Shown here: positions 13,034 through 48,182 of the stretch, piece after piece
How the letters are laid out: each line of letters opens with the position of its first letter
How positions within the stretch are numbered: the stretch's first letter is position 1
IMG/VR virus record: IMGVR_UViG_3300020039_000031
Origin: a virus
Reading direction: 5' to 3' (one strand)
DNA: 64,000 nt
Notes under the pieces: model-generated
Seen by the model: the letters and a program-made list of their open reading frames with translations, nothing else
What the model was told of the DNA's origin: nothing
Databases searched by the model: none
Position numbers and translations under genes: made by a program

Positions 13034-14605
13034 GTGATCACATTGACCAGAAAGCAGCAAATCATCATGAGCCACCTGGCCGGGGTGAGCAACCGGCAGA
13101 TTGCATCGAAGATGCACATCAGCAAGGACACCGTGAACAAGTATGTGAAGGAGTACGATGCACAGCGGGCAGAATTGCTGACTCGGGATCCGGATGCAGA
13201 TCCAGAAGAGATTCTCCAGACCTTCGTAGAAGAACCGAAATACGACGCCAGTAACCGCACCCCGGTCATCGTAACGCCGGAGATGGAAGCCGCCGTGGAG
13301 CAGTGCCTACAGCTCAACGCTGTGAAGCGAGTGTCCGGGATGCGGAAACAGGCGATGAGGAAGAAGGACATCCACGAATACCTGGTTCGGGAAGGCTTTT
13401 CTGTAAGCTATTCCACGGTAAAACGGCTGGTGAACAGACTGGAAGCCCGTCATGAAGAGGCGTATATCCGGCAGGAATATCAGCCCGGTGAAACCTGTGA
13501 GTTCGACTGGGGCGAGGTCAAGCTGGATATAGCGAACAGCGGCTTCAAGAGATACCAGATGGCCGTATTCACAGCAGCATATAGCGGGGAGCGATTTGCC
13601 GTTCTCTACTGTTCACAGGATACGGCAGCATTCCAGGAATCCCATACGACCTTCTTTTCCTTCTGTCATGGAGCATTTCACACCATGGTCTATGACAACA
13701 TGAAGGTCGCCGTGCGGAAATTTGTTGGCCCGACAGAAAAGGAACCCACGAACGCGCTGCTGGAGTTGTCTCTGTATTATGGCTTCCAGTTTCGGTTCTG
13801 CAATGTACGCCGCGGGAACGAGAAGGGGCATGTGGAGCGCAGTGTGGATGTGGTTCGCCACAAAGCTTTCAGTGCACCCGGCTGTGACATTTTTGAATCT
13901 CTGGAGTCTGCCAACCGGTATCTGTTTGGCGTATGTGTCAGGCTGAACCGGGAAACGGCATCCAACGGCCAGGTTCCGGCAGAACTCTTTGAAGAAGAAC
14001 AGCGCTGTCTACTGCCGGCCATGCCGAGGTTCGAGTGCTGTATCCGGACGGAAAACAGCGTGGACAAGTACTCTACAGTCATGGTTGCCGGTAATCATTA
14101 CTCTGTGCCGGACACGCTTGTGGGAAAGCGTGTGCAGGTACGTCTTTACACGAGCAAGCTCGTTGTTTACTACGAAAACCGGATCGTGGCGACTCACAGC
14201 CGGAGTTTCCGCCCTCATGACTGGACGATTGACATCTATCACTATCTCCGAACCCTGAAACGCAAGCCCGGCGCTCTGCCCGGCAGCACGGCACTGCTGC
14301 AGTCCGACTCTGTTGTAAAGCAGATTTACGACACTTATTACACACAGGATGCTCGTACCTTCCTCGAAGTTCTGGAGGTCATATACGAGCTAGGCGCGGA
14401 TACTGTACAGCAGGCGCTTAAACGTATGGAGCGTCTGTCGCCGAAGGATATGAGCGCCCAAAAGATCCGCGTCGTATGCGAGAACACACTGCGTAAGGTG
14501 CCTCAGCAGCCGGGTTCTGACCATCTCAGTGAAAAAGCAAAAAGCACGCTCTCTCAATATGATCTGCTCAGACAACTGCAGATGGAAGGGAGTGTCGCTG
14601 TATGA
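13034..14605 (+). CDS. istA: IS21-family transposase IstA
   Basis: 523 aa, N-terminal HTH (QIASKMHISKDTVNKY); DDE region; overlaps istB by 4 nt. Confidence 0.8.
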   Translation: MITLTRKQQIIMSHLAGVSNRQIASKMHISKDTVNKYVKEYDAQRAELLTRDPDADPEEILQTFVEEPKYDASNRTPVIVTPEMEAAVEQCLQLNAVKRVSGMRKQAMRKKDIHEYLVREGFSVSYSTVKRLVNRLEARHEEAYIRQEYQPGETCEFDWGEVKLDIANSGFKRYQMAVFTAAYSGERFAVLYCSQDTAAFQESHTTFFSFCHGAFHTMVYDNMKVAVRKFVGPTEKEPTNALLELSLYYGFQFRFCNVRRGNEKGHVERSVDVVRHKAFSAPGCDIFESLESANRYLFGVCVRLNRETASNGQVPAELFEEEQRCLLPAMPRFECCIRTENSVDKYSTVMVAGNHYSVPDTLVGKRVQVRLYTSKLVVYYENRIVATHSRSFRPHDWTIDIYHYLRTLKRKPGALPGSTALLQSDSVVKQIYDTYYTQDARTFLEVLEVIYELGADTVQQALKRMERLSPKDMSAQKIRVVCENTLRKVPQQPGSDHLSEKAKSTLSQYDLLRQLQMEGSVAV

Positions 14606-15390
14606 CGAGCGCCAAGACGAACGCCGACATAAAGGAACTGTGCAAGATCCTGCGGCTGAACGGTATCGCGAAGAGCTTTGAGACCATGGAGCAGGAAGCT
14701 GCGGACTACGAGGATTTTCTGTACCGAATATTATCTCAGGAACTGCAGGAAGCCGAGGAACGGATGAAACAGTCCCGAATCCGACGTGCCCACTTTCCGT
14801 ACAAAAAATATCTGGAAGACCTTGAATTGGAATGCTTGCCAAGGGATATGCGCAAGCGGCTGCCGGAGCTCGCTGGATTGGACTTCATCCGCAACGGCCA
14901 AAATCTCATTCTCACCGGCAATCCCGGCACTGGAAAAACACATGTGGCCATTGGCCTCGGTATTCGAGCTTGCGAGCAAGGCTTCCGCGTTCTGTTCACC
15001 ACTGTTCCATATTTGGTAACAGAACTGAAGGAAAATGTGAATGCAAAAACGCTCAAGGCGTTTGAGAAACGGTTTGAAAAGTATGATTTGGTCATAGCCG
15101 ATGAGATGGGCTATGTCTCCTTTGACCGAGAGGGCGCAGACCTCCTGTTTACAAACCTCTCTCTGCGCGCCACCCAGAAATCCACGATTATTACATCCAA
15201 CCTGACCTTTGAGCGCTGGGACGAGATATTTGGCGACGCTGCCATTACCAGCGCCATTGTGGACAGACTCACCTACAAAGCCATCCTGGTAGATATGGAG
15301 GGCGACTCATATCGTTTCCGCGAGACCCTCCGTGCCAATGGAGCTTCTTTTGAACGACTGATGGAGGGTAAGAACGATGCCAAAGCTTGA
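14602..15390 (+). CDS. istB: IS21-family helper ATPase IstB
   Basis: Walker A GNPGTGKTH, Walker B VIADEMGY. Confidence 0.85.
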   Translation: MTSAKTNADIKELCKILRLNGIAKSFETMEQEAADYEDFLYRILSQELQEAEERMKQSRIRRAHFPYKKYLEDLELECLPRDMRKRLPELAGLDFIRNGQNLILTGNPGTGKTHVAIGLGIRACEQGFRVLFTTVPYLVTELKENVNAKTLKAFEKRFEKYDLVIADEMGYVSFDREGADLLFTNLSLRATQKSTIITSNLTFERWDEIFGDAAITSAIVDRLTYKAILVDMEGDSYRFRETLRANGASFERLMEGKNDAKA

Positions 15391-24788: not shown

Positions 24789-25390
24789 CTGCCTTTCATC
24801 ATTTCCAGTTGGTTCATCATTTCATCAAGAGCCTGCTCGCGTTCTCTGCCCGCAAGCTCCTGTATGCGATCGATATCTTTTTGTACGACTTGCGCAAAGC
24901 TCTCCATCTCAGCGTTTTGTCTATCTATTTCTCTGCGCAGTTTAAGTTCCCTCTCGACCTTTCGTCTGAAGCGATTGTATTTCAAGGCCTGAAAATAGTT
25001 TTTGAAGTATATACGCTGTTTACCTTTGTAGATCGGTTGTGACGTAGGAGAATACGTCAGTGTTATGTATTTTTCTCCATTGGGGATGGTTTTCTCACAA
25101 AAAACCCTTCTCGTTTCGTACTCTTCGTCACAGTAGGCAACCGCGTACCAGTCGTTGTCAATCTCGTATCGGTTAGGATTGATAGCGAAAAAAGAGGCGA
25201 ACTGATCAAATGTCAATTTAACAGAAGAATCGTACTCTCCGTCCGTTTTTGATTTTCTGTAACTCATTGGACTGTTTGAACAAAACAGATCTAGCAAGAA
25301 AATAGGCAACCCAAGCACCATCGTGAATGCCCAAAATAATACAAAAAGCCTCAACTTACATACCCTCGGTCGTGATGAATTCCCGCCCAT
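24785..25390 (-). CDS. membrane-anchored coiled-coil protein
   Basis: N-terminal TM helix, C-terminal heptad-rich region. Confidence 0.35.
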   Translation of the reverse strand: MGGNSSRPRVCKLRLFVLFWAFTMVLGLPIFLLDLFCSNSPMSYRKSKTDGEYDSSVKLTFDQFASFFAINPNRYEIDNDWYAVAYCDEEYETRRVFCEKTIPNGEKYITLTYSPTSQPIYKGKQRIYFKNYFQALKYNRFRRKVERELKLRREIDRQNAEMESFAQVVQKDIDRIQELAGREREQALDEMMNQLEMMKGR

Positions 25391-27584
25391 CGTCCGATGC
25401 GTAAAACATCTTGCGGAGCGTGCAGATATCCTTCGGGATCGTGTCTACATCATCACGGTCATGGAGTGTGCGTACCCAACCGTAAAAACGATTGGCAAGC
25501 GCTGTCGTCAGAGCTGATGTACGTTTACCGTCAATATGACCTTTGCGGATAGCCTCGTGCGCAACGCCGCGCATAAATTTCCAGAAGTTGTAGTAAGCCA
25601 GCTTGAGCTTAATCATATACCCTGTTGAATCTTCGATTACAAAGCCTTCGATATGGCGTCCTTGGTACATGTATTCCGGGTCTGTTACTTCGTAATACCA
25701 GTCAAAGAATTCGGGCCACTCATGAAGCACGAACGCTTTTTCCTTGCAGCGCAGGCTAAAAGCGGCGGCGACCTCTTTCAGTTGCTCATACGGCATCTTC
25801 GTGCATTTCAGGTCGTTTTTGATAATGTCCAGCAGGTAGAGACAGTTACCTGAATACTCAATGATGTGTGGATCATGAACCATGTCCACACACTCGAAGA
25901 CCATCGTGACATCATTCTCTTTCAGATATTGCTTGATGCGCTCGCGAACACCGGGAGCGACCGTCTCAAAAATCCCGCGCAGCCAAACAGCGTAGTCTCC
26001 GTCCGGAGAGGATTTGGTTGTGATAAATAGATTATCCTTGTCATGGTCATAGCTGATCAGGCTGAGGAACCCGTTTTCTTTCACATACGCAGTTACCGGG
26101 AAGACCAGCTTGGATTCCAGCATATCGAATTTCGTCTCGGGGCGCTCATTGATATTGAAGAACTTATCGTAAGCTCTTGCCACGATCTTTGCCTTTGGGA
26201 CATTAATGTAAAGCCCGCGTGCCTTCATCGTCTGCTCGTCCCACACCTTATCGTAGAATGCGCTCTTGGTGAAATTAAAGGATGAGATGTCTCCGTAACG
26301 TTTCTCTTGAATGTACTTGTTCTCCCGCATTTCGAGGATCACATCAGCAACATTCGTTGTCTTTTTGGGCTCATATACAACGACCTCTTCCGGCTCACGA
26401 AAAACCGTGTTCTTGATTTCCACCGTCTTGAAACCATCCGCTGACAACTGGACTACACGGAGCTCACCGCCAAACTCGACCCGTCCTTCCAGATTGAACA
26501 CTCTCTCATTCACCTGAACCGGCAGATGCTTTGTGTTCCGATGCCCGTGAATTTGATATGTATTCTCTGGTGTATTCGCAACAAAAGCGTTGGCGACCTT
26601 CTCGAAATCGTTATAGTTCCCCACGCCCTTGATCATCTGCTGAGTAGCTACGAGCGTCATGTTCTCTGGAATACAGCTCAGGCCGGCATGAGTTACGAGA
26701 ACCGTCTTATCACCGTATGAGTACCAAGCGCACTGTCCCATACGCCGGTAAAGTTGTCTCATTGCCTTTCGGTCAATCTTCGCGTCCTGAAGTTCTGCCT
26801 TCGTGTGCAGTTCAAAATCCTTGGATTTCGCCACTCCATCACATCCATACGTCCAGAGCCAACGCTCATGATTGCCCTCAAGGAGAAGTACGTTATCACG
26901 CCCGACAATATCCATGAGGAAGTTGATCACCTGTACATTCTCGATCCCTCGGTCAATGTAGTCTCCGCAGAAGATGTAGAACTCATCATCTTTTAGCGTC
27001 CCCTCATTATTGAAGTACTGTTGAAGTACTGTCCAGCATCCGTGAATGTCACCGATATGATGAATCTTCTTATAGTTGGAAAGATCGATCTTCCGCATCC
27101 ATATCTTATCCAGCTCATCCGGCTGGATGACCGTGATACCGGACGGGATCTTCTGCGTGGCAAACCTCGCGTACATACGGTCGATCGCCTCGTCAGGAAC
27201 CTGTTTGATCTCGGGACGCATCTTGTTCTGTGCCTTGCACCATTCGATAGGCAATCCGGTGAAGTCAACGCAGTAGATACGGTACCGGTATGTATCGCAC
27301 ATGTCTTTATAACGCTTCATCTCGATCGTTTTGGAGTTCGTGGCGTCGATCACCGTGAACGCGCCGTTCTGCATACGAGTTTCCAGCAGGCGAAACAGCG
27401 TATTCCAAACCACCTGATCGCTCGTGACATTGATCGCCCGCCCTCCGTCAACCGTCATGACCGGTCCGGCGCACATCAGACGAATATCATCAGCGGACAG
27501 CGCGTATGGCGTCAGCCCGTGTTCTTTGATCCATGTCGTCTTGCCGCAGCCAGGAGCTCCGCGCAGCAAAAGCAATACTCTCAT
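25356..27584 (-). CDS. polynucleotide kinase-phosphatase with ligase-like C-terminal domain (Pnkp-like RNA repair enzyme)
   Basis: P-loop GAPGCGKTT; calcineurin motifs GDIHGC/GDYIDRG/GNHE; ligase motif I KENG, EGFVIED, KLKL. Confidence 0.65.
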   Translation of the reverse strand: MRVLLLLRGAPGCGKTTWIKEHGLTPYALSADDIRLMCAGPVMTVDGGRAINVTSDQVVWNTLFRLLETRMQNGAFTVIDATNSKTIEMKRYKDMCDTYRYRIYCVDFTGLPIEWCKAQNKMRPEIKQVPDEAIDRMYARFATQKIPSGITVIQPDELDKIWMRKIDLSNYKKIHHIGDIHGCWTVLQQYFNNEGTLKDDEFYIFCGDYIDRGIENVQVINFLMDIVGRDNVLLLEGNHERWLWTYGCDGVAKSKDFELHTKAELQDAKIDRKAMRQLYRRMGQCAWYSYGDKTVLVTHAGLSCIPENMTLVATQQMIKGVGNYNDFEKVANAFVANTPENTYQIHGHRNTKHLPVQVNERVFNLEGRVEFGGELRVVQLSADGFKTVEIKNTVFREPEEVVVYEPKKTTNVADVILEMRENKYIQEKRYGDISSFNFTKSAFYDKVWDEQTMKARGLYINVPKAKIVARAYDKFFNINERPETKFDMLESKLVFPVTAYVKENGFLSLISYDHDKDNLFITTKSSPDGDYAVWLRGIFETVAPGVRERIKQYLKENDVTMVFECVDMVHDPHIIEYSGNCLYLLDIIKNDLKCTKMPYEQLKEVAAAFSLRCKEKAFVLHEWPEFFDWYYEVTDPEYMYQGRHIEGFVIEDSTGYMIKLKLAYYNFWKFMRGVAHEAIRKGHIDGKRTSALTTALANRFYGWVRTLHDRDDVDTIPKDICTLRKMFYASDDGREFITTEGM

Positions 27585-28689: not shown

Positions 28690-29391
28690 TTATATCTCCA
28701 CGATGTCCTGATAGAGGCATCTGTATTTCCCATCATCGAATATCGCATCCTGATGATGGTGCCCGAAAAACCACGACTTGAACGTAAGATTATGATCCTT
28801 CTCCAGCTCCCAGAAGAAATTTGTGAGCGCATCTGGCTGCGAGTGGTGCGTATACATTCGATGGAGGAGCTGTGTCCCGCAGCAATGTGTAATGACGTAA
28901 TCAACATTGAAACCGGCTCTCTCCAGATTCTCCATCGCCTCTGTGTACTCGGCGATGTTTGGCATTTCTTCCGGCCACCAGCTTACGCCAGGTTTACGCC
29001 ACAGTTTATCAACGGAGTCTGCGCCTCCCATTGTAAAGATGGTGCGTCCGTCGATATTGAAAACCTGACCGCGCATCAGATGGAAGATGGAATCGGACAC
29101 CCTATGTATTTTGCCGCCGTTCCATTCCTCGACCGGGAGTGTGGCGTAGTAATCATGACGGTCATGGTTTCCATCGACAAACAGCGTCGTGAAATTCCTG
29201 CTGTTGTAGACCTCAATACAGTATGCGCTTTCGCCTTCATCGACAGGCATACTCCAGATACCTCCCCAGTCGCCAGCAATGATCAGGTAATCGTCCTTCG
29301 TGAGTTTCTTCTGTTCAGGCCATCTAGCCGTATTGATTTTTCCCCAGTCGTAATCTCCATGCGTATCACCGGTCACAAAGATTCTGGACAT
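28690..29391 (-). CDS. calcineurin-like metallophosphoesterase
   Basis: GDTHGD, GDWGG, GNHD, ITHC motifs. Confidence 0.7.
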   Translation of the reverse strand: MSRIFVTGDTHGDYDWGKINTARWPEQKKLTKDDYLIIAGDWGGIWSMPVDEGESAYCIEVYNSRNFTTLFVDGNHDRHDYYATLPVEEWNGGKIHRVSDSIFHLMRGQVFNIDGRTIFTMGGADSVDKLWRKPGVSWWPEEMPNIAEYTEAMENLERAGFNVDYVITHCCGTQLLHRMYTHHSQPDALTNFFWELEKDHNLTFKSWFFGHHHQDAIFDDGKYRCLYQDIVEI

Positions 29392-36178: not shown

Positions 36179-36835
36179 TCATATCACCTCAATCTGACAG
36201 GATTTCATTACGAGCAGCGCTGCGTTGTGCGCCTCCTCCGATGTTCCCGCACAACACTTTGAGTCAACCACAATATCGTTTTCCTTGAAAGCGGAACGAA
36301 GATATAGTGCGTTGGAAACCACGCAGATGTCGGTGCAAAACCCGACCACTTCGATCACAGCATCATGGAAAAGATCGTAGTACAGCTTCCAGTGTATGTA
36401 TGCGAAGGCAGGTTTTCTGATATGCGGCTCATCAGATATAAGCGCCTCAATTCTATCATCTATTTCCCACCCGCGTGTTCCGTGCATACAGTGTTCAATA
36501 GGGAACAACTTACCCTCGTGCGTATCTGAGTAGTTTTCCCAATGCGTGTCCTGCGTGGCAACGATAGGCCAGCCATTCCTTTTATACTCCTTTATCTTTC
36601 GGACGATATTGGGAACGGCAGCTCGCGCATTTTCTGATCCGAGACGACCTGTGATAAAATCGTTCTGCGCATCGACAACTACCAGCACACGGTATGGCTT
36701 CTTCTGCGCTTTCTCTTTGCGTTCTGCGCTGAAAAACTCATTCGGATCATATCTTGCTGTTTTCTCTTCACAGGATCGGCACACCTGCCGCCCCTCCGGT
36801 ACATATGTACCGCAGCATACACATACGTCCTGCAT
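36179..36835 (-). CDS. isochorismatase-family hydrolase, nicotinamidase (PncA)-like, with N-terminal zinc ribbon
   Basis: VLVVVDAQNDF (Asp), ATQDTH, GFCTDICVVSNA (catalytic Cys); N-terminal CVCCGTYVPEGRQVCRSCE. Confidence 0.6.
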   Translation of the reverse strand: MQDVCVCCGTYVPEGRQVCRSCEEKTARYDPNEFFSAERKEKAQKKPYRVLVVVDAQNDFITGRLGSENARAAVPNIVRKIKEYKRNGWPIVATQDTHWENYSDTHEGKLFPIEHCMHGTRGWEIDDRIEALISDEPHIRKPAFAYIHWKLYYDLFHDAVIEVVGFCTDICVVSNALYLRSAFKENDIVVDSKCCAGTSEEAHNAALLVMKSCQIEVI

Positions 36836-38060: not shown

Positions 38061-38717
38061 CTAGAACAAAATTTCATTTTCTTCGATAGAGAAGCCGAGG
38101 CACACGCCATAGTTGGAGCTCGCGCCGGTGTAGTAGTAGAGGTTGCCGCCGTTGTTGACAAACATGAAGTAGGTGGTGTAGCCAAGGGCGGGAGAGCGAA
38201 GCCAATACCAGCACGGATCGCCGCCACGCGCCTTGACACGATCCAAATTACAATGAAAGATGTCGAGCTGCGTATCTTCCGGCTCTGCATCAGAGTAGTC
38301 TCCGATGCCAAACATTTGTGTACGAGAAGGAATGAACAGCTTATCAAGCGTTTCGATGCGCTCGCCGTTCAAAACCTGAACGATGCGTGTCGGCTGTATC
38401 ACAGACCGAAGCTCATCAGACAGCAATGGGTAGATCTCGTCCTGAAGATAACTGCGCATCTCGCTGTCACGCCATCCTCCGGCGTTCGTATCGCGCTCGT
38501 TCATCCGATGCCTGAATGTGATGTTGTTGGACAGGAAGAATACCTTGCCTCTTTCATCACGACATACTTTGAACTCAATGACACGTCCATCGGTTAAGCG
38601 GGCGTCCACGATGCTCCCGCTATTGAGCGCATAGTTCTCTGTACCGGTCCGCAGATCGTCTGCCATCTCACGCCACGACGTTTCGTATCCGATATTGATT
38701 TTAGCGATCATACCCAA
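38061..38717 (-). CDS. C-type-lectin-fold (DUF1566/Lcl-like) protein with GC-rich Asn/Tyr-rich C-terminus
   Basis: GGWRDSEMRSYL ... CWYWLRSPALGYTTYFMFVNNGGNLYYYTGASSNYGVCLGFSI; the 3' end is conspicuously GC-rich with AAC/TAC codons. Confidence 0.4.
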   Translation of the reverse strand: MGMIAKINIGYETSWREMADDLRTGTENYALNSGSIVDARLTDGRVIEFKVCRDERGKVFFLSNNITFRHRMNERDTNAGGWRDSEMRSYLQDEIYPLLSDELRSVIQPTRIVQVLNGERIETLDKLFIPSRTQMFGIGDYSDAEPEDTQLDIFHCNLDRVKARGGDPCWYWLRSPALGYTTYFMFVNNGGNLYYYTGASSNYGVCLGFSIEENEILF

Positions 38718-40108: not shown

Positions 40109-41092
40109 TTACTCACCCGAGGCTGAGGAACGCGGAGTCGAACTATCGGTCAAATCGATCATAAACGAGGAATCCGATCCGAGAACGGTTGACGGGAGCA
40201 TACCGTCCCACTGTTTGATCCAGTAGTAGCTGATCAGTTCTCTCGTCAGGGCCCCAGCAATCCGCTGGTTCATTTCCGCCTCACGCTCACCGGCATACAG
40301 CGCCGCCTCCGCCTGGATCTTAACGACCTCCAGATCCGCATTTGCGGCAATGATAGCCTTCTCTGCTTCGGCGTTCGCGGCGATCACAGAACGATCTGCG
40401 GCGGCCTGTTCCTCCATCGTCATACGAGCCTGCTCAGTTTCCGCAGTCAGCTTGTTCTGCGCAGCTACCTGCTTCGCTTCGACCGCGTTAGTAAACGCAT
40501 CGGTGAAGTCAATATCCTCGATAGCGATAGAGACGATTGTGATGCCGTAGGATGCCATATCCGTCGTAGTGCTCTCTGCGATCAGATCGGACAGCGTATC
40601 ACGGCTGGCAATCAGATTCTCCGCCGTGTACTGCGAAAAGATCGCCTTTGTGTTCTCGATCACACGGGGATACATGACGTTCTCGTAATAGTTCAGACCA
40701 ACTGTGCGGTACAGTTCCTGCGCCGTTGCCTGATCGATGCAATAGTTCACAGAAAGCTGAAGATCCACCTGCTGGATATCGCTGGAGAATGCCGAGGTTT
40801 CAATCTGCACCTTTTGCGTTCGATTATCCATCTTCACAACCTTCTGCCAGGGGGCGATGAAGTTCGCACCAGCATTGACGGTTCTGTTCTCAACCCTGCC
40901 GAACGTCGTCAGGATTCCCGTATACCCGGTAGGTACGACTGCCATACATGAACCGAGAAGCATCAAGACGGCTACCACGATAGCAACAGAGCGGATTGTC
41001 TTACCGATCTTTGCCTCATTGGCGTTCTTGAAGCACGCACCGGCCACAATTCCGGCCACCATGACAATGATTGCGAGAATGAAAAGAAACAT
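40109..41092 (-). CDS. SPFH/band-7 (prohibitin/HflK-like) membrane protein
   Basis: N-terminal TM helix, then an SPFH domain and a C-terminal Ala/Glu-rich coiled coil. Confidence 0.7.
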   Translation of the reverse strand: MFLFILAIIVMVAGIVAGACFKNANEAKIGKTIRSVAIVVAVLMLLGSCMAVVPTGYTGILTTFGRVENRTVNAGANFIAPWQKVVKMDNRTQKVQIETSAFSSDIQQVDLQLSVNYCIDQATAQELYRTVGLNYYENVMYPRVIENTKAIFSQYTAENLIASRDTLSDLIAESTTTDMASYGITIVSIAIEDIDFTDAFTNAVEAKQVAAQNKLTAETEQARMTMEEQAAADRSVIAANAEAEKAIIAANADLEVVKIQAEAALYAGEREAEMNQRIAGALTRELISYYWIKQWDGMLPSTVLGSDSSFMIDLTDSSTPRSSASGE

Positions 41093-41115: not shown

Positions 41116-41631
41116 TTACAAATAGGCGTACTGTCCACGCCCAATTTGATCAACAAGCTCAAAACCGCTATTGTTTTTATTGCGATAATGAGAAAACGTA
41201 TGATAACGATCGTCCTCATCAAAAGACGGCGGTTCAAATACGCGAATCATGCGATCCATTTCCTGCTCTGGGATGACACGACGACGCGACCTGTTGTTCT
41301 CTCGGCACAGCTCTTTGTCTGTCTCAATGTAAATAAGATGTGTTTCAAAACCCGGAAACCAGTCAAGGAGCTGGATTCTACCAACATACGTTGGATTATT
41401 CGTATCGAAGATCGTATCGATTCCCTGTTGCTCTGCCATATGGAGCGCACGGAACAATGCCATCCAGATCTCAAACTCATTGATGTGTTTACGATCATCG
41501 CCGTTGAATAGGCGATAGAAATCATCAGGGCAGAGATAATGCAAATGATCTTCCTCAGCGTAGCTCTTAGCGAAGGTGGTCTTGCCGCTTCCGCTAAGAC
41601 CGCACATCATGTAGAGCTTCGGCTTACTCAT
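41116..41631 (-). CDS. P-loop kinase, ribosylnicotinamide-kinase (NadR C-domain)-like
   Basis: MMCGLSGSGKTT Walker A; sits directly downstream of PnuC and the NMNAT. Confidence 0.45.
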   Translation of the reverse strand: MSKPKLYMMCGLSGSGKTTFAKSYAEEDHLHYLCPDDFYRLFNGDDRKHINEFEIWMALFRALHMAEQQGIDTIFDTNNPTYVGRIQLLDWFPGFETHLIYIETDKELCRENNRSRRRVIPEQEMDRMIRVFEPPSFDEDDRYHTFSHYRNKNNSGFELVDQIGRGQYAYL

Positions 41632-42379
41632 TGGTCGCGTTCCTCGATTTGTTGAGCTTATACCAGTTGATAAGACCGATTACAGCCATAATCAGGTAGA
41701 TGGATTTCTTGGTCAGATACACGGTATCGAAGTGTACGATGTACATAGCCACCGCGACGATATCCGTAACGATCCAGAGAACATACTGCTCACGATACCG
41801 GAACAGCTCAAGGAACGTGGCAATGATGCCGATCGCGACCGTTGCCGCGTCAAGCCACGCAACCGTACCGCCGACGCGAACAAGGATCGCGTGATAGATC
41901 ACCGTAGAGATACCGACGACGCCGACCACAATGGCGTCCTGCCACCATGTCATTTTCCTCGCCTTTGTCAGCTCCTGCTGCGTCTCATCACGATGCCTCG
42001 ACCATGCGATCCACGAAATGATATTTAGAGGGAGATAAAGGAGGAGTTCGAGACACATCGTGCCGTAGATCTTCCAGTACGCCAGATACACTATGTACAC
42101 GACCGTATTGACGAGGCCGAACCCGAAGTTTGAGATACTCGCTCTGGCACAGAAGAAAATGCAGACGACGCCACAGACCGCGCTGACAAAGTTGACGATC
42201 GTGAGCCACGCAGGATTCTCGCTTGACGCAGGATCAACGAACGCCGTTACCATCGCGTATGCGGCGATCACGACCATGATGCCGGCCATGACCCATTCGT
42301 ACCATTTCAGGCTCTTGAAAGAACGGATCAGATTGCGCTCACTCTTTTTGATGCTCATATTGCCTCCTAAATAATCCAT
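41624..42379 (-). CDS. pnuC: PnuC-family nicotinamide riboside transporter
   Basis: 7-TM profile with Trp-rich helices typical of PnuC. Confidence 0.55.
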   Translation of the reverse strand: MDYLGGNMSIKKSERNLIRSFKSLKWYEWVMAGIMVVIAAYAMVTAFVDPASSENPAWLTIVNFVSAVCGVVCIFFCARASISNFGFGLVNTVVYIVYLAYWKIYGTMCLELLLYLPLNIISWIAWSRHRDETQQELTKARKMTWWQDAIVVGVVGISTVIYHAILVRVGGTVAWLDAATVAIGIIATFLELFRYREQYVLWIVTDIVAVAMYIVHFDTVYLTKKSIYLIMAVIGLINWYKLNKSRNATNE

Positions 42380-42882
42380 TGTTTTGCTTCTTCGATTCCC
42401 ATTTCGCGAACCGCTGTCGCGCTGATGGGAACTTCTTTTCTCTCTGGATCAACTAGTTCGTAGGTCGCCCACGGATAGGCTCTTTTGAAATACGGCGCGT
42501 ATTCCGGCTCGCTGCCAAATACAGCGTCGAACCGACCGCACGCCTCAAGAACGATCGGCGTTTCCATATCCCAGCTTTCCTCACCGTTCTCATCCCGACA
42601 TGACGAAACGTCAATGACAACCGGGATCACGTTATCAAACATGGCGGCAACCTTTTCGATCTGTTGCTTACGCGGCTCAGGATCGGTAAGAACTCTATGG
42701 TAAATCCCCATAAAACTCTTACGCCTGATCTCTTCTTCCTGTTTCCCGCCAAGCACCAGCAAAAGATAAACCACGTCGCAGAGCGACGCGGCGTATTCGA
42801 GGCAATGTAAATGCCCCTTATGGAACGGCATAAACTTGCCGCCATACATACCTGATTTGTATTTCTTCATAGCACAGCACAC
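42367..42882 (-). CDS. nicotinamide-nucleotide adenylyltransferase (cytidylyltransferase fold)
   Basis: GGKFMPFHKGHL = (H/T)xGH nucleotidyltransferase motif. Confidence 0.65.
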   Translation of the reverse strand: MCCAMKKYKSGMYGGKFMPFHKGHLHCLEYAASLCDVVYLLLVLGGKQEEEIRRKSFMGIYHRVLTDPEPRKQQIEKVAAMFDNVIPVVIDVSSCRDENGEESWDMETPIVLEACGRFDAVFGSEPEYAPYFKRAYPWATYELVDPERKEVPISATAVREMGIEEAKQWII

Positions 42883-43226
42883 ATAAAAGTATTCAGCATA
42901 TCGCAGAAGTCTTCATCCGGCTGGTCGTCGTCCTCTACTCCTGTGAGAGCACTTACGGCATCTTCATATGAAAGCGTGGTTTCAGAAGGGATGTATCTGC
43001 CGCTCCAAAGCACAAAGCAGATTCCCTCCTCATCATCATTATCCATACCGATGTGCATGTATGTCGTGTCCGTCGGGTTGTTCTCCACATACTCAACGGA
43101 TAGCGGGTGATGCTTGAAGCCGTATTCGACCAGCAGATCGACCATCATATTGCGTTCCTCAACGGTCTCGCATCGGATGAAGTAATGATCTTGTATAAAG
43201 CATTTGTCAAATTCTTCTCGTGTCAC
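42867..43226 (-). CDS. hypothetical protein, tandem paralog A
   Basis: shares T(R/H)(E/D)EF...CETVEER...L(L/V)E.G with 43223..43600. Confidence 0.4.
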   Translation of the reverse strand: MTREEFDKCFIQDHYFIRCETVEERNMMVDLLVEYGFKHHPLSVEYVENNPTDTTYMHIGMDNDDEEGICFVLWSGRYIPSETTLSYEDAVSALTGVEDDDQPDEDFCDMLNTFMCAVL

Positions 43227-43600
43227 CTGTACGCCACTCCCATCAGCGAGGCGAGCTCGTCATCGAAACCTTCCAACAACACGCCATCTTCATCGTCTGG
43301 GCTTGAAAGCACCTCGACAGCTTCTTTGTAAGAAATCACAGACGAAAAACTGGACGCATGTGCCCATAAGCAGAATGTTTTGCCATTACTGTCGATTCCG
43401 GGATACATGTACATTTTACTCGCCGGATTTCTGATATAGTTTTCTTTTGACTCCGGATTTCTTGGTATTCCGTTTTCCTCAAGAAGCTCACAGATATGCT
43501 CTCGTTCTTCGACCGTCTCGCATTTTACGCTGATCTTATGTTCTGTATCAATGAACGCTCTTAAGAATTCGTCGTGTGTCATTCTCAGATCGCCTTTCAT
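43223..43600 (-). CDS. hypothetical protein, tandem paralog B
   Basis: see paralog A; overlapping stop/start. Confidence 0.4.
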   Translation of the reverse strand: MKGDLRMTHDEFLRAFIDTEHKISVKCETVEEREHICELLEENGIPRNPESKENYIRNPASKMYMYPGIDSNGKTFCLWAHASSFSSVISYKEAVEVLSSPDDEDGVLLEGFDDELASLMGVAYR

Positions 43601-43744: not shown

Positions 43745-43883
43745 GGCACCGACGCAGCTACCATTCCGAAACTTCTGCGGAGCGCAGAAGCAACTGCCGA
43801 AGCGGATATGTATCGACAATTCATCTGCATGGGGTACAAAAGCCGCGCCTGCGGTTTCGCCTCCCGCCTGACGCGGCCTATTA

Positions 43884-44611: not shown

Positions 44612-45234
44612 GTTCACTATCTGCAATCGATATAGTTGTTCCTGTTTCGTACTGAAGTATCCAAGCGGGAGAGTCTCCTCTGGTTTCCGGCTATGCAGTG
44701 CAGCCGATTCCGGTTTGCTTTGTTTTATGTTAGCCTTGGATCTTAGGATCCGAGAGCTTCGTCCAACTCGGTACTGGGCCCGGCTCGCTTGTTTCATCGC
44801 CTTGGTGTCTTCTTCGTCGCCAGATCTAGGCGGCACTTCTGCGGAGCGCAGAAGCATACATCTCTCGATGTATCATTGCATTGCAGATAGTTGTTATTTC
44901 CTATGATCTACATAGAGATAGCCTTGCAAGTTACCAGGTGCTGCGGCAGCCAACTGCGCACATACAGATGATCTTCCATCTTCAGAAAAAGGTTTCTTGG
45001 TGTCGTCGAGACTCGCATGTCCATTGCAGTGCAGGCGTCTTCAGGGATGCTCGCTATTACTCCTTTTCCTGTCTTCAGGTTAGATGATCCGTCGCTCGTG
45101 GGGCGGCGCAAGGCTACGGCCGCGGCCGTAACCTGCCTGACATCGTCACCGTAACTTTTCGTAACTTCTGCGGAGCGCAGAAGCACCGCCAAAAAAAACA
45201 TGGCGGTTATTTCATCATAGGAATTATCCTTTGA

Positions 45235-46374
45235 TTATCGCTTTAAGTCCTTTCGGATCATCGCAACGATATCCGCGTTGTATTTTTCTCCGATGTGCTT
45301 CACCATATCGTCGATCGCCTCGCGTTCCACATTGCGATAGTAGTTGCGAAGACCCTCCATAACTTGGATATCATGGAGATCCCACTCGATCCCGTGTTGC
45401 TTATCTGACACATACGCCGTGATCATTCCACGGAACTGCCTTCGCGCCTGAAGCCCGATGGTGATCTCGTTGTCTCTTGTAAGCATCAGACCGAGATTCC
45501 AGTTTGAGCCGGACGATGAGCCGTACCGCGTCTTTTTCTCATTCAAAACGTGTGGAGAGTTGAATTGCTTATGTACGTCCTTGATGAGTCGTTCAACAGC
45601 GTGGATATCAAAGTCATACTTCGACGATACGATCGTATCGTCAGAATACCTTGTGTAAACGAACTGCTGCTTCTGAAAATCCCGGAACGCATTGGCGAGC
45701 GTATAGTCGATGGGGATCATCAGGATGTTCGTGAGCGTCGGAGAGAGCGGAGTCCCCTGCGGGAGACCTCCATTCAAGAAACCGAGCTCCACAGCTTTTT
45801 CGAGCTGTTCCTTTCCCTGGTCGATCTTCATGACCTCCGAAAACGGGAAAATCATTGACAGCATCTGCATCGACCATTCCAGCGTCGTGTTGCCGAAGAA
45901 ATTTGATAGATCCAGCTTGCCAAACCACTTGCTTTCGTTGGCCTGATGGCGCTTAACGGCGTCGATCGTACAGCGCTTTTTGACATACGCAAACGCTGAC
46001 GTGTGATACAGCGCCCTGAAATCAGACTCGAACATCCGTTTCAGATCACGAAGTGCCGTCATCAAATCCTCACACGGCGCGTCGATCCTGCGAAGTCCAC
46101 CGGATTTCTTGGGGATATAGAATTCATAATAGAGTTCTTTGCGCGGCTGCTGACGGAGAAACTCCGTCCGTTCATTGAACTTTATGAGCTGTGAGATCAG
46201 ATATGGAACGCTGATCGTGCGCAGAAAATTGTTGCTGACATGCTCAACAGCGTATGTTCGTGTATTTGCCGTGCTGTCGTTTATCATCAGATTTCCGCGC
46301 CGCTTCTCAAATAAGAATTCCTCCAATGTAAGCTGATGATACATCGGAGACTGCATAACCGTTATATACGTCAC
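45235..46374 (-). CDS. reverse transcriptase (non-DGR, class unassigned)
   Basis: IPKKSGGLRRI (motifs 1/2), LDLSNFF (A), GLPQGTPLSPTLTNI (B'), YTRYSDDTIV (YxDD); GTG start with AAGGAGG RBS 7 nt upstream. Confidence 0.85.
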   Translation of the reverse strand: MTYITVMQSPMYHQLTLEEFLFEKRRGNLMINDSTANTRTYAVEHVSNNFLRTISVPYLISQLIKFNERTEFLRQQPRKELYYEFYIPKKSGGLRRIDAPCEDLMTALRDLKRMFESDFRALYHTSAFAYVKKRCTIDAVKRHQANESKWFGKLDLSNFFGNTTLEWSMQMLSMIFPFSEVMKIDQGKEQLEKAVELGFLNGGLPQGTPLSPTLTNILMIPIDYTLANAFRDFQKQQFVYTRYSDDTIVSSKYDFDIHAVERLIKDVHKQFNSPHVLNEKKTRYGSSSGSNWNLGLMLTRDNEITIGLQARRQFRGMITAYVSDKQHGIEWDLHDIQVMEGLRNYYRNVEREAIDDMVKHIGEKYNADIVAMIRKDLKR

Positions 46375-46682
46375 TCGATCACCTCCTTATTCAGTAGTGT
46401 GATTGTAACCTTTGTTGAGTATTGCTGACCGCTTGCCAGGTCGGCGCCAATTGCACGCTCGAGCTGGATGTCTGAGACCAGATCCATTCTGAGGATGAGG
46501 ATCGGTTCCAGAAAGCTGCAGTGCAATTGCTTCCCGTGCGTGTCTGCTGATGAGATCGCGATGACTGCAGTTGTACAACTCGGAGGTGGGTCGTCATCTG
46601 GCGGACTGATTTCGATCGAGTCTGACCATCGTCCCCTTGTCGCCTTACCTTTTCGATACTCCTGCGGAGCGCAAGAGTTCAC
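46371..46682 (-). CDS. possible small ORF in the RT leader (overlaps the RT start as GTGA)
   Basis: 103-aa ORF with weak coding character; the region may instead be non-coding RNA. Confidence 0.2.
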   Translation of the reverse strand: MNSCAPQEYRKGKATRGRWSDSIEISPPDDDPPPSCTTAVIAISSADTHGKQLHCSFLEPILILRMDLVSDIQLERAIGADLASGQQYSTKVTITLLNKEVIE

Positions 46683-46726: not shown

Positions 46727-47488
46727 TCACCGCAAACCGAGGAAACTGAAAAGATCGTCGTCGCTGTATACTTCCTCTGTATCATCGACCTCGAAAGCTC
46801 TTAACGTGTAGACGCCATCCGCTGTGATATCCACGATCAGATCTCCGCTGATCCGGCATTTTGGACGAAGACCAGCGCGATGAGCCGGTTCAGCAGACGA
46901 TCCGTAACCGTCTCTGCCTACCACATGAACCCTCGTTGACGCCTCCTTCGGCGTAGAAGTCCAATATGATACATAGGACGATGCCTCATAGCCCTCACGC
47001 CAGAATCGATTGCGGAAATCTTGTGACGGATGCGGACGAATGCCCTTCCGCTTGAACAGAGCAAAATTGCTTCCATACACATTAAAGATGTCATTGAATT
47101 CCGGCAGTTGAACGCCGCCGGATATTGCCGCGATCTCATAAGGCTCGAAGGCGTAAAGAAATCCGCGACGGTTCGCATAGTCGCCGTGAAGCACGTCGTA
47201 CTCGTGCATATTATGGAACCAGACCGCGTCCTCGCTGTTGAGGAACTGATAGATATTGGACAGTTCGTATGTATTGTTGCCGTACCATTTGTGATCGTTG
47301 ATCGGCGAACCGCGTTCGCGGGCGTCAAAAACCAACGAATCGAGCGCGTATTCCGATATAAAATCGCAATTTGGACTGGCTTTCAACCAAATGATCGGCA
47401 CGCCGGCTGCGTTCGGCGAGGGATCGCATGTGTAGCGTCCGAACTGAAGCCTTGTGCCGACCTTCAGGTCTTTGATTTTCCTATCCAT
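46727..47488 (-). CDS. C-type-lectin-fold (DUF1566/Lcl-like) protein
   Basis: FWREGYEASSYVSYWTSTPKEASTRVHVVGRDGYGSSAEPAHRAGLRPKCRI resembles the YWSST...AW.V.F..G...G.RPV.R signature. Confidence 0.4.
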   Translation of the reverse strand: MDRKIKDLKVGTRLQFGRYTCDPSPNAAGVPIIWLKASPNCDFISEYALDSLVFDARERGSPINDHKWYGNNTYELSNIYQFLNSEDAVWFHNMHEYDVLHGDYANRRGFLYAFEPYEIAAISGGVQLPEFNDIFNVYGSNFALFKRKGIRPHPSQDFRNRFWREGYEASSYVSYWTSTPKEASTRVHVVGRDGYGSSAEPAHRAGLRPKCRISGDLIVDITADGVYTLRAFEVDDTEEVYSDDDLFSFLGLR

Positions 47489-47510: not shown

Positions 47511-48182
47511 TCAGAATGCGTCGCACATCATGCCGAACGCATCGTCGAGCACCAACTTCTTCAGAGGCTTGCCATTGATGAAGTTCATGAAGTTCGCCAC
47601 GCCTCTCGCACAGATGATGCGAACCGTCGGGCACACGCCCAGCGTGACATTGCAGGCGGACACCGGCGTCTCTTCCTTCGCCTCATCGTGAGAGAACTGC
47701 ATGGAGTTGAGCAGATCCTTCTTCATCTTCTCGTCGTTCCAGTCGGCGGCGTAGTGCTGCGCGTCCTCCAGACGAGTGCGGAAGTCGAAGATCGCCTTGA
47801 CGAACGTAGAGTCCATGTGCTTTTCCACGATCTCCCGGCGCAGATCGATATTGTCCACACACAGGAAGATATACCCGGACAGGAGCTTGCCCTTCCAACC
47901 ATCCGGCTGGAGAACCAGATCGTCCACGATGTCCGGGTTGATATCCATGAGGATATCCTTCAGCGCTTCGACCTTCGGCATCCCGATGTGGCGGGCGAAG
48001 AACATCTGATTGACGATGTTGTGCGCCTCCACCGTGTCAAAATCCCAGAGCGTCATCTTTGTGACGCCGCTTCTCGCGAGGTTCTCCGCGACGGTCGAGC
48101 CTACGGAACCACATCCGATGATGTGTACCCTCGCGTCATCCTGATCGGGATTGAAATACTCGTAGCTTTTCGATAAGTCCAT
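47511..48182 (-). CDS. minimal E1-like enzyme (ThiF/MoeB family)
   Basis: VHIIGCGSVGSTVAENLARSGVTKMTLWDFDTVEAHNIVNQMF = Rossmann GxGxxG plus the DxDxVE.SNLNRQ-like ThiF signature. Confidence 0.7.
   Translation of the reverse strand: MDLSKSYEYFNPDQDDARVHIIGCGSVGSTVAENLARSGVTKMTLWDFDTVEAHNIVNQMFFARHIGMPKVEALKDILMDINPDIVDDLVLQPDGWKGKLLSGYIFLCVDNIDLRREIVEKHMDSTFVKAIFDFRTRLEDAQHYAADWNDEKMKKDLLNSMQFSHDEAKEETPVSACNVTLGVCPTVRIICARGVANFMNFINGKPLKKLVLDDAFGMMCDAF

What the first reader, a model, noticed from the sequence alone, without database searches (positions are those of the whole stretch)
41116..42882. Phage-encoded nicotinamide-riboside salvage: PnuC transporter, NMN adenylyltransferase and an RNK-like kinase (a split NadR)
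Three consecutive genes reproduce the functions of the PnuC/NadR pathway: uptake of nicotinamide riboside, phosphorylation, and adenylylation to NAD+. Phage NAD+ reconstitution pathways have recently been shown to counter NAD-depleting immune systems (Thoeris, DSR, Sir2-type effectors). A PnuC plus split-NadR version, together with the upstream PncA-like gene, would be a distinct route to the same end.
Basis: partly seen in the sequence, partly recalled or inferred. Interest (0 to 1): 0.6.

Follow-up and report, generated by a model that had tools for sequence, protein, structure and literature searches.

The report
Phage NAD salvage operon, unusual kinase
A large uncultivated gut or rumen phage carries a tightly packed operon for importing nicotinamide riboside and turning it into NAD+; this pathway type is already published as NARP3, but here the kinase step is apparently done by a phage-specific enzyme related to RNA-repair kinases instead of the usual NadR kinase domain.

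Summary
Window 41116-42882 contains three overlapping minus-strand genes.

- **NMNAT:** a NadR-type NMN adenylyltransferase domain on its own, with both catalytic motifs intact.
- **PnuC:** a clear PnuC transporter (Pfam 1.7e-35; PDB 4QTN 9e-27).
- **KIN:** a 171-aa P-loop kinase.

The "RNK-like / split NadR" reading is wrong on homology.
- Its match to phage RNK domains covers only the P-loop.
- The NMNAT-PnuC pair exists without any kinase in 75 of 80 gut and rumen bacterial genomes sampled, so nothing was split.

KIN is nevertheless linked to NAD salvage. In 14 of 25 dereplicated phage loci it sits beside PnuC plus NMNAT, in five different gene orders. One of these is a jumbo-phage cluster that also has PncA, PncB and NadE. 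KIN replaces the phosphodiester-binding Arg of polynucleotide kinases with an invariant Tyr. The same phage also carries a canonical Pnkp-RNA ligase.

Best reading (about 0.55): a three-gene variant of NARP3 (Sci Adv 2026) in which a PNK-derived kinase traps imported NR as NMN.

Main caveat: two phage lineages carry KIN next to a full NadR with an apparently intact RNK domain, so KIN may do something else in NAD metabolism. This is a new variant of a known kind, of moderate interest.

The parts
42367..42870 (-). Stand-alone NadR-type NMN adenylyltransferase (NMNAT-only, about 167 aa; the longest ORF reaches 42882 from a GTG)
   Evidence: Family hits: PF01467 7.3e-7, TIGR01526 1.7e-14 (NMNAT half only), phrog_3462 2.3e-21. 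PDB 9x6f 2.5e-7 and NadR 1lw7 4.3e-5. The HxGH and ISxTxxR motifs are invariant in a 26-member family alignment. The ATG at 42870 overlaps the upstream stop codon.
41624..42358 (-). PnuC-family nicotinamide riboside transporter (244 aa from the RBS-preceded ATG; the longest ORF reaches 42379)
   Evidence: Family hits: PF04973 1.7e-35, TIGR01528 at 114 bits (cut-off 42.45), phrog_1880 5.1e-35. PDB 4QTN 8.8e-27. The TM6 motif is YxxWxxxD rather than WxxWxxxN; the D variant also occurs in PnuCs paired with a full NadR.
41116..41631 (-). KIN: a phage-specific AAA_33 (polynucleotide-kinase-clade) P-loop kinase, the candidate nicotinamide riboside 5'-kinase
40109..41092 (-). Band_7/SPFH membrane protein, 23 nt downstream of KIN; a recurrent companion of phage PnuC modules (role inferred, possibly membrane scaffolding for PnuC)
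   Evidence: PF01145 3.9e-31, phrog_200 2.3e-51. It recurs near the module in L001, L002, L010, L050/51 and L077, and was detected in none of the 80 bacterial NMNAT-PnuC loci.
36179..36835 (-). PncA-like nicotinamidase (isochorismatase fold) with a Cys-rich N-terminal extension; 4.3 kb downstream in the same transcriptional direction
   Evidence: PF00857 2.7e-25. PDB 1ilw/1im5 pyrazinamidase/nicotinamidase 2e-8, with aligned D55, K141, C171 and metal ligands D96, H98, H115. A PncA homologue is directly fused into the module as NMNAT-PnuC-KIN-PncA in L046-L048.

Best explanation
The three genes form a phage nicotinamide-riboside (NR) salvage operon, a three-gene variant of the published NARP3 pathway.

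**Proposed steps**
1. PnuC lets external NR diffuse into the infected cell.
2. The AAA_33 kinase (KIN) phosphorylates the ribose 5'-OH of NR to give NMN. This traps the substrate, because Pnu transporters are facilitators that depend on phosphorylation of the imported vitamin.
3. The stand-alone NadR-type NMNAT adenylylates NMN to NAD+.

**Origin of the parts**
- The NMNAT-PnuC pair was taken from Clostridia-type hosts, where it is a kinase-less two-gene operon.
- KIN is a phage-specific addition derived from the polynucleotide-kinase clade. Its phosphodiester-binding Arg is replaced by an invariant Tyr, which fits a nucleoside acceptor rather than a polynucleotide.
- The nearby PncA-like nicotinamidase would feed nicotinamide, the product of NADase defence, into the host Preiss-Handler route.
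- The net effect would be to keep NAD+ available during infection, plausibly against NAD+-depleting defences.

**Shown versus inferred**
- Shown: family assignments, intact motifs, operon structure and conserved linkage.
- Inferred: the substrate of KIN, the substrate of this PnuC subfamily, and the anti-defence role.
For: **Family assignments and motifs**
- PnuC and NMNAT assignments and their motifs are well supported.

**Operon structure**
- Start and stop codons overlap, which implies co-translation.

**Conserved linkage of KIN to PnuC+NMNAT**
- KIN homologues of 33-77% identity lie next to PnuC+NMNAT in five arrangements:
  - NMNAT-PnuC-KIN
  - NMNAT-PnuC-KIN-PncA
  - KIN-NMNAT-PnuC
  - KIN-NadR-PnuC
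  - NadR-KIN-PnuC
- Linked members are spread across the whole KIN tree.
- In jumbo-phage locus L046, KIN sits inside an NAD cluster with NrtR-like Nudix, PncA, PncB and NadE.

**Distribution relative to RNK and to bacteria**
- In the NMNAT-seeded viral sample, KIN accompanies 12 of 20 RNK-less modules and 0 of 6 RNK-fused ones.
- It is absent from all 80 bacterial NMNAT-PnuC loci.

**KIN is not the phage's RNA-repair kinase**
- The same phage has a canonical Pnkp-RNA ligase at 25356-27584 that keeps the D-x-x-R motif. KIN is only 24% identical to its kinase domain and has D36-x-x-Y39.

**Published background**
- Pnu transporters are facilitators whose genes are typically co-located with the kinase that traps the imported vitamin (PMC5749112).
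- PnuC + NadR (NARP3) restores NAD+ and defeats Sir2-HerA and DSR1 (PMC13464706).
Against: - Two independent lineages (L004, L077) carry KIN beside a full NadR. The RNK Walker A, Walker B and lid motifs of that NadR look intact, so KIN is not simply a replacement for a missing RNK.
- 11 of 25 dereplicated KIN loci have no PnuC or NMNAT within 4-8 kb.
- Six dereplicated phage modules, including the syntenic relative L056, and all 80 bacterial operons work without KIN. The pair may therefore not need a dedicated linked kinase.
- After dereplication, the complementarity between KIN and RNK is not significant (9/15 against 0/4, p = 0.087).
- No biochemical data exist for this kinase family.
Confidence: 0.55

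Rival explanations
1. KIN belongs to the NAD module but catalyses a different step from NR to NMN. Candidates are phosphorylation of NAD+ to NADP+, of nicotinic acid riboside, or of ADP-ribose or an NAD-derived immune signal. In this reading, the NR-kinase step is supplied by the host, or by the RNK domain where one is present.
For: - KIN co-occurs with full NadR proteins whose RNK motifs are intact, in two lineages and two gene orders.
- Bacterial and some phage NMNAT-PnuC pairs function without any linked kinase.
- Solo KIN genes exist in many phages.
Against: - KIN is nearly always placed directly beside pnuC or the NMNAT gene, the position expected for the trapping kinase (PMC5749112).
- It is enriched with RNK-less modules in the unbiased sample.
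- PNK-clade kinases act on a ribose 5'-OH, which is exactly the NR reaction.
- No NADP-dependent function is evident in the neighbourhood.
Confidence: 0.22
2. KIN is an ordinary polynucleotide 5'-kinase for RNA/tRNA or DNA end repair, working with the phage ligases. On this view its position beside PnuC and NMNAT reflects the general clustering of nucleotide-metabolism genes rather than a shared function.
For: - Ligase genes often lie near the module: an RNA ligase in L004, Pnkp-Rnl in L031, LigA in L077 and a DNA ligase in L001.
Against: - The window and its relatives already encode a complete Pnkp-RNA ligase with the canonical D-x-x-R motif.
- KIN has lost the acceptor-phosphodiester Arg, which is an invariant Tyr39.
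- KIN is translationally coupled to pnuC and inserted between nadR and pnuC in L077.
- Linkage to PnuC/NMNAT persists through five rearrangements.
Confidence: 0.08
3. This rival concerns purpose, not chemistry. The module would be a general auxiliary metabolic function that raises NAD+ supply for phage enzymes in NAD-limited gut or rumen hosts, not a counter-defence against NAD+-depleting immunity.
For: - The same NMNAT-PnuC pair is ordinary housekeeping equipment in the likely host bacteria.
- Gut jumbo phages carry whole NAD synthesis clusters, interpreted as independent NAD+ supply (PMC11662467; L046).
- An NAD-dependent DNA ligase sits beside the module in L077.
- No defence system or host is known for this phage.
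Against: - PnuC + NadR was shown experimentally to overcome Sir2-HerA and DSR1 (PMC13464706).
- The two purposes are not mutually exclusive.
Confidence: 0.35

Closest known systems
NARP3 (phage Bas30_87 PnuC + Bas30_86 NadR-like NMNAT-RNK; Sci Adv 2026, PMC13464706; PDB 9x6f is probably Bas30_86)
   Same: Phage-encoded and operonic. It has a PnuC-type NR transporter plus a NadR-type NMNAT. The expected chemistry is the same: NR to NMN to NAD+. The window NMNAT's best solved relative is 9x6f.
   Different: There is no RNK (AAA_28) domain. The kinase is a separate gene from the unrelated AAA_33/PNK clade, giving three genes instead of two. The NMNAT and PnuC belong to a Clostridia-type subfamily, only about 33% and 29% identical to those of enterobacterial phages. 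The host range is rumen and gut anaerobes rather than Enterobacteriaceae.
Bacterial NadR/PnuC salvage (H. influenzae NadR 1LW7; L. lactis NadR 6GYE; N. mucosa PnuC 4QTN)
   Same: The NMNAT fold motifs (GxFxPxHxGH, ISxTxxR) and the PnuC fold are shared. So is the logic of facilitated diffusion followed by metabolic trapping.
   Different: NadR fuses NMNAT to RNK, with or without an HTH domain. Here the NMNAT stands alone, as in 75 of 80 sampled Clostridia, Bacilli and Treponema operons, and a PNK-like kinase is added only in phages.
Polynucleotide kinases (C. thermocellum Pnkp kinase domain 4GP6/4GP7; T4 Pnk 1LTQ)
   Different: The Arg of the D-x-x-R acceptor motif is an invariant Tyr. There is no phosphatase or ligase partner domain. 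KIN is genomically tied to PnuC/NMNAT rather than to an RNA ligase. The phage also has a separate canonical Pnkp-Rnl.
NAD gene clusters of gastrointestinal jumbo phages (Microbiome 2024, PMC11662467)
   Same: The ecosystem and theme are the same. pnuC, nadR/nadM, pncA, pncB and nadE cluster on large gut phages, and L046 is such a cluster.
   Different: That paper does not mention any kinase (0 occurrences of the word). The AAA_33 kinase embedded in these clusters appears not to have been described.

Membership tests
NARP3 (phage PnuC + bifunctional NadR-like enzyme) | PnuC-type NR transporter encoded in the same operon | tested here: met
   PF04973 1.7e-35, TIGR01528 above its cut-off, 4QTN 8.8e-27; its coding sequence overlaps both neighbouring genes.
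NARP3 (phage PnuC + bifunctional NadR-like enzyme) | NadR-type NMNAT domain with catalytic motifs | tested here: met
   TIGR01526 1.7e-14 over the NMNAT half; 9x6f 2.5e-7; HxGH and ISxTxxR motifs invariant.
NARP3 (phage PnuC + bifunctional NadR-like enzyme) | RNK (AAA_28) domain fused to the NMNAT | tested here: not met
   The protein ends after the NMNAT domain (167-171 aa). There is no AAA_28 hit in the operon. TIGR01526 scores 53.8 against a full-length cut-off of 341.
NARP3 (phage PnuC + bifunctional NadR-like enzyme) | Restores NAD+ and rescues phage from Sir2-HerA/DSR1 | not testable with these tools
   This needs infection and metabolite assays like those in PMC13464706.
NadR ribosylnicotinamide kinase (RNK, Pfam AAA_28) | Sequence or profile similarity beyond the P-loop | tested here: not met
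   No AAA_28 hit at E <= 0.01. hhalign to six phage RNK domains gives 70% probability over 41 P-loop columns only.
Polynucleotide 5'-kinase (AAA_33 / PNK clade) | P-loop kinase fold of the PNK type | tested here: met
Polynucleotide 5'-kinase (AAA_33 / PNK clade) | D-x-x-R acceptor motif (general-base Asp plus an Arg that binds the phosphate 3' of the terminal nucleoside; the roles are from published T4 and Cth Pnk work, recalled from my own knowledge) | tested here: not met
   The Asp is kept (D36) but the Arg position is an invariant Tyr39 in 23 of 23 family members. The phage's own Pnkp keeps D32-x-x-R35.
Polynucleotide 5'-kinase (AAA_33 / PNK clade) | Genomic or physical association with a 3'-phosphatase and an RNA ligase | tested here: not met
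   KIN is a single-domain protein coupled to pnuC. The fused kinase-phosphatase-ligase is a different gene, 25356-27584.
PnuC (NR-specific Pnu transporter) | WxxW(x)3[D/N] ligand-binding motif in TM6 | tested here: inconclusive
   The window has YVLWIVTD, with the first Trp replaced by Tyr and Asp at the last position. Asp also occurs in PnuCs paired with a full NadR (L004, L050, L077). The NR-versus-NMN specificity of this subfamily is unknown.
PncA nicotinamidase | Asp-Lys-Cys catalytic triad plus an Asp/His/His metal site | tested here: met
   Alignment to P. horikoshii PncA (1ilw/1im5, 2e-8) conserves D55, K141, C171 and D96, H98, H115. The NCBIfam nicotinamidase hit is well below its cut-off (23 against 174 bits), so this is family-level support only.

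The most novel reading that the evidence does not exclude
KIN may not be an NR kinase at all. It could be a phage-invented small-molecule kinase acting downstream or alongside NAD+ synthesis, for example on NAD+ (making NADP+ or 3'-NADP), on ADP-ribose, or on an NAD-derived immune signal. That would explain three observations: it is kept next to NadR proteins with an intact RNK domain; it occurs alone in many phages; and the Clostridia-type NMNAT-PnuC pair needs no linked kinase, perhaps because that PnuC subfamily imports NMN and traps it by adenylylation.
Probability: 0.15. Interest if true: 0.8.

Novelty: new variant of a known kind. Interest (0 to 1): 0.5.

Why it matters
NAD+ depletion is a major bacterial anti-phage strategy, and three phage NAD+ reconstitution pathways are now known. 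This locus has several implications.

- **Wider distribution of the NR route.** The NARP3 route exists well outside Enterobacteriaceae phages, in large phages of rumen and gut anaerobes. There it has a different enzyme make-up, apparently with the kinase step supplied by an enzyme recruited from the RNA-repair kinase clade.
- **A likely case of non-orthologous displacement.** If confirmed, it adds a new NR kinase family that current NARP3, NadR and RNK searches would miss.
- **An open question about the hosts.** The likely host bacteria, across 75 of 80 sampled genomes, run a kinase-less NMNAT-PnuC operon, and it is unclear how they trap NR.
- **Directly testable proteins.** KIN is a 171-aa protein with a confidently predicted fold, and its co-occurrence with an intact RNK domain gives a sharp biochemical question.

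Tried and rejected
- **Near-identical GenBank phage.** None found. Megablast matched only a 65-bp tRNA stretch. Cultured-phage relatives of the NMNAT and PnuC are at most 34% and 32% identical.
- **Fusion ('Rosetta-stone') evidence for KIN.** 210 profile hits are all single-domain proteins of 150-250 aa, with no fusion to NMNAT, PnuC or Nudix.
- **BFVD fold search.** It gave only PNK, zeta-toxin and AAA names, with no NR kinase.
- **'Degenerate RNK' explanation for KIN + NadR co-occurrence.** Rejected. Walker A, the DxD motif and the lid DDGxR are intact in the L004 and L077 NadR proteins.
- **PnuC motif Asp versus Asn as a substrate discriminator.** Rejected. Asp also occurs in PnuCs paired with a full NadR.
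- **DGR template/variable repeats around the RT.** A repeat search of 37.5-48.5 kb found only tRNA similarity and a four-copy hairpin.
- **PncB and NadE homologues in the window.** tblastn with the L046 proteins found none.
- **Statistical complementarity of KIN and RNK.** It is significant only before dereplication (p = 0.017 against 0.087), so I treat it as suggestive.
Full report
**1. What is at the coordinates**

Window 41116-42882 holds three consecutive minus-strand ORFs whose ends overlap.

- **NMNAT, 42367-42882.** This is a stand-alone NadR-type NMN adenylyltransferase.
  - Hits: PF01467 7.3e-7, TIGR01526 1.7e-14 over the NMNAT half only, and phrog_3462 2.3e-21.
  - Its best solved relatives are NadR-type enzymes: 9x6f at 2.5e-7 and H. 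influenzae NadR 1lw7 at 4.3e-5.
  - The GGKFxPxHxGH and ISxTxxR motifs are invariant in a 26-sequence family alignment.
- **PnuC, 41624-42379.** This assignment is clear.
  - Hits: PF04973 1.7e-35, TIGR01528 at 114 bits against a cut-off of 42.45, and phrog_1880 5e-35.
  - It matches N. mucosa PnuC 4QTN at 8.8e-27.
- **KIN, 41116-41631.** This is a P-loop kinase of Pfam AAA_33 (2.3e-19). It has no hit to AAA_28, the family of the NadR RNK domain.

Reading the DNA refines the gene starts.
- NMNAT probably starts at the ATG at 42870, an ATGA overlap with the upstream stop codon.
- PnuC probably starts at the ATG at 42358, behind an AGGAGG site.
- The KIN ATG overlaps the PnuC stop (ATGAGTAA).
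- A Band_7/SPFH gene follows 23 nt later.
- The genes therefore form part of one co-directional, translationally coupled array.

**2. The setting is a large phage**

- The window encodes DNA polymerase, primase, a DnaB-like helicase, ERF, an exonuclease, NrdD, a fused polynucleotide kinase-phosphatase-RNA ligase, HU and 11 tRNAs.
- An identical KIN protein is on record from a 119.6-kb metagenomic contig.
- Syntenic relatives are IMG/VR viral contigs of 75-250 kb from rumen and gut samples.
- No cultured phage is close.

**3. The kinase is not RNK-like**

- By sequence, its best solved relative is the kinase domain of C. thermocellum Pnkp (5e-4).
- Its nearest annotated phage relatives, at about 30% identity, are Bacillus phage polynucleotide kinases beside RNA ligases.
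- Profile-profile comparison gives 97.4% probability over 127 columns against the Pnkp kinase domain of these same phages. Against six phage RNK domains it gives only 70% over 41 P-loop columns.

**4. The kinase is also not the phage's RNA-repair kinase**

- The window already encodes a complete Pnkp-RNA ligase at 25356-27584 (phrog_8238, 1e-218).
- KIN is only 24% identical to its kinase domain.
- The Pnkp keeps the canonical acceptor motif D32-x-x-R35. All 23 aligned KIN family members have D36-x-x-Y39.
- In T4 and Cth Pnk this Arg binds the phosphate 3' of the terminal nucleoside (published work, recalled from my own knowledge). Losing it fits a nucleoside acceptor rather than a polynucleotide. 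This is an inference, not a demonstration.

**5. Gene neighbourhood ties KIN to NAD salvage**

I mapped KIN, NMNAT, RNK, PnuC, PncA and Band_7 on loci fetched through KIN or NMNAT homologues. KIN lies beside PnuC+NMNAT in five arrangements.

| Arrangement | Loci |
|---|---|
| NMNAT-PnuC-KIN | window, L001-3, L031-34 |
| NMNAT-PnuC-KIN-PncA | L046-48 |
| KIN-NMNAT-PnuC | L015-17, L035-39, L042 |
| KIN-NadR(full)-PnuC | L004-6 |
| NadR(full)-KIN-PnuC-LigA | L077 |

- That is 14 of 25 dereplicated KIN loci, and the linked members are scattered over the whole KIN tree.
- In the 253-kb contig behind L046, KIN sits inside a cluster of NrtR-like Nudix, NMNAT, PnuC, KIN, PncA, a second NMNAT, PncB (NAPRTase, 3.7e-143) and NadE.
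- In the NMNAT-seeded viral sample, which is not biased by KIN, KIN accompanies 12 of 20 RNK-less modules and 0 of 6 NMNAT-RNK fusions (p = 0.017).
- After dereplication the figures are 9 of 15 against 0 of 4 (p = 0.087), so the complementarity is only suggestive.

**6. The pair comes from the hosts; the kinase is a phage addition**

- A scan of one genome per species found the NMNAT-only gene in 80 rumen and gut Clostridia, Bacilli, Erysipelotrichaceae and Treponema genomes.
- In 75 of these loci, PnuC is also detected, immediately downstream of the NMNAT gene.
- One example sits beside tuf/fusA/rpoC and is clearly chromosomal.
- None has a KIN or RNK homologue within 5 kb, whether tested by tblastn or by HMM.
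- 'Split NadR' is therefore the wrong history. The phage acquired a kinase-less two-gene operon (56-67% identity) and, in many lineages, added a PNK-derived kinase.
- All 210 profile hits to KIN are short single-domain proteins, almost all from metagenomic, phage-sized contigs.

**7. Most likely mechanism**

- Pnu transporters are facilitators. Their genes typically sit with the kinase that traps the imported vitamin (PMC5749112).
- PNK-clade kinases phosphorylate a ribose 5'-OH, which is the NR to NMN reaction.
- I therefore favour this sequence: PnuC imports NR, KIN makes NMN, and NMNAT makes NAD+. My confidence is about 0.55.
- The nearby PncA-like protein would convert nicotinamide, the NADase product, to nicotinate for the host Preiss-Handler route.
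  - It lies at 36179-36835 (PF00857 2.7e-25).
  - It has the triad D55/K141/C171 and metal ligands D96/H98/H115, aligned to P. horikoshii PncA.
  - No PncB or NadE is present in the window.

**8. What argues against this**

- Two independent lineages keep KIN next to a full NadR whose RNK Walker A, DxD and lid motifs are intact. KIN is then either redundant or does something RNK does not.
- 11 of 25 dereplicated KIN loci show no NAD gene within the 4-8 kb available.
- Several phage modules, including the syntenic L056, lack any kinase, as do all the bacterial operons.
- The rivals I keep are these:
  - a true polynucleotide kinase (0.08).
- Whether the module serves counter-defence or general NAD+ supply cannot be decided here.

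**9. Comparison with what is known**

- A phage PnuC + NadR operon was predicted in 2024 (bioRxiv 10.1101/2024.02.11.579819).
- It was published in August 2026 as NARP3. That work shows NR import, NR to NMN to NAD+ conversion, crystal structures, and rescue from Sir2-HerA and DSR1 (PMC13464706).
- Gut jumbo-phage NAD clusters with pnuC, nadR and nadM are also described, but that paper never mentions a kinase (PMC11662467).
- The pathway idea is therefore known.
- What seems new is the three-gene architecture, the PNK-clade kinase family embedded in phage NAD modules, its absence from the bacterial operons, and its co-occurrence with an intact RNK domain.
- I rate this a new variant of a known kind, with interest 0.5.

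**10. Limits**

- Only flanks of 4-10 kb were available, so 'KIN alone' may be an artefact of the window size.
- The loci are phylogenetically related.
- No ligand modelling or biochemistry was possible.

Noticed in passing
window 43772-43790, 44836-44854, 45165-45183, 46659-46677: A 19-nt perfect hairpin, CTTCTGCG-GAG-CGCAGAAG, occurs four times in intergenic spots just upstream (in the direction of transcription) of the NAD operon region. Three copies are exact and one has 3 mismatches; 0 matches are expected by chance. It could be a phage terminator, a processing site or a regulatory element.
   Followed up: partly
window 25356-27584 (and 28690-29391): A 742-aa fusion of polynucleotide kinase (AAA_33), metallophosphoesterase and T4-type RNA ligase (phrog_8238, 1e-218), with a second metallophosphoesterase nearby. 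Together with the 11 tRNA genes this looks like a full RNA/tRNA repair kit.
   Followed up: partly
window 40109-41092; also L001, L002, L010, L050/L051, L077: A Band_7/SPFH membrane protein recurs next to phage PnuC modules, and next to solo KIN in L010. It was detected in none of the 80 bacterial NMNAT-PnuC loci. It may be a phage-specific membrane partner of the transporter.
   Followed up: partly
loci L078-L157 (bacterial genomes) and L026: A two-gene NMNAT-only + PnuC operon with no RNK or other kinase within 5 kb is the norm in rumen and gut Clostridia, Bacilli, Erysipelotrichaceae and Treponema (both genes detected in 75 of 80 loci). How NR is trapped there is unclear. This PnuC subfamily has its own motifs (YGTxxLE, YxxWxxxD, TKK), so direct NMN import is conceivable.
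   Followed up: partly
L046 4616-11579 (253-kb IMG/VR contig): A jumbo-phage NAD cluster: NrtR-like Nudix, a small radical-SAM protein, NMNAT, PnuC, KIN, PncA, a second NadR-type NMNAT, a GIY-YIG endonuclease, PncB and NadE. Together these make a complete Preiss-Handler route plus an NR route on one phage.
   Followed up: yes
window 45235-46374, 47511-48182, 46727-47488, 38061-38717: A reverse transcriptase (RVT_1 5e-17; phrog_2825), a ThiF/E1-like protein and two DUF6273 proteins flank the NAD operon. This set is conserved in relatives L001, L002, L031 and L056. A search of 37.5-48.5 kb found no DGR-like template/variable repeat.
   Followed up: partly
window 13034-15390 (+ strand): A transposase (phrog_1157, 7e-63) and a second ORF lie on the opposite strand, in a stretch with higher GC and no GC skew (12-16 kb). 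This looks like an IS element inserted into the phage replication region.
   Followed up: no
window 9869-12181 and 8174-9163: The DNA polymerase (phrog_405) is split into two ORFs covering profile positions 43-792 and 794-1045, with a 207-aa ORF (9164-9787) between them. This may be an intervening mobile element or a genuinely split polymerase.
   Followed up: no
window 42867-43226 and 43223-43600: Two tandem paralogous small genes (119 and 125 aa, shared CETVEER motif, no Pfam hit) directly precede the NMNAT gene and overlap it. Two small genes of similar size occupy the same position in L001 and L031.
   Followed up: no
window 36700-36835: The PncA-like ORF has a 45-residue N-terminal extension with CxCC...CxxC cysteines, like a zinc ribbon. 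This extension is absent from the 170-184 aa homologues in L001 and L046, and it is unclear whether it is translated.
   Followed up: no
L075 7972-8507; L077 5357-7294: In relatives, an ADP-ribosylglycohydrolase lies 3.5 kb from a solo KIN gene, and an NAD-dependent DNA ligase lies directly after the NadR-KIN-PnuC module. Both are further NAD-related neighbours.
   Followed up: no
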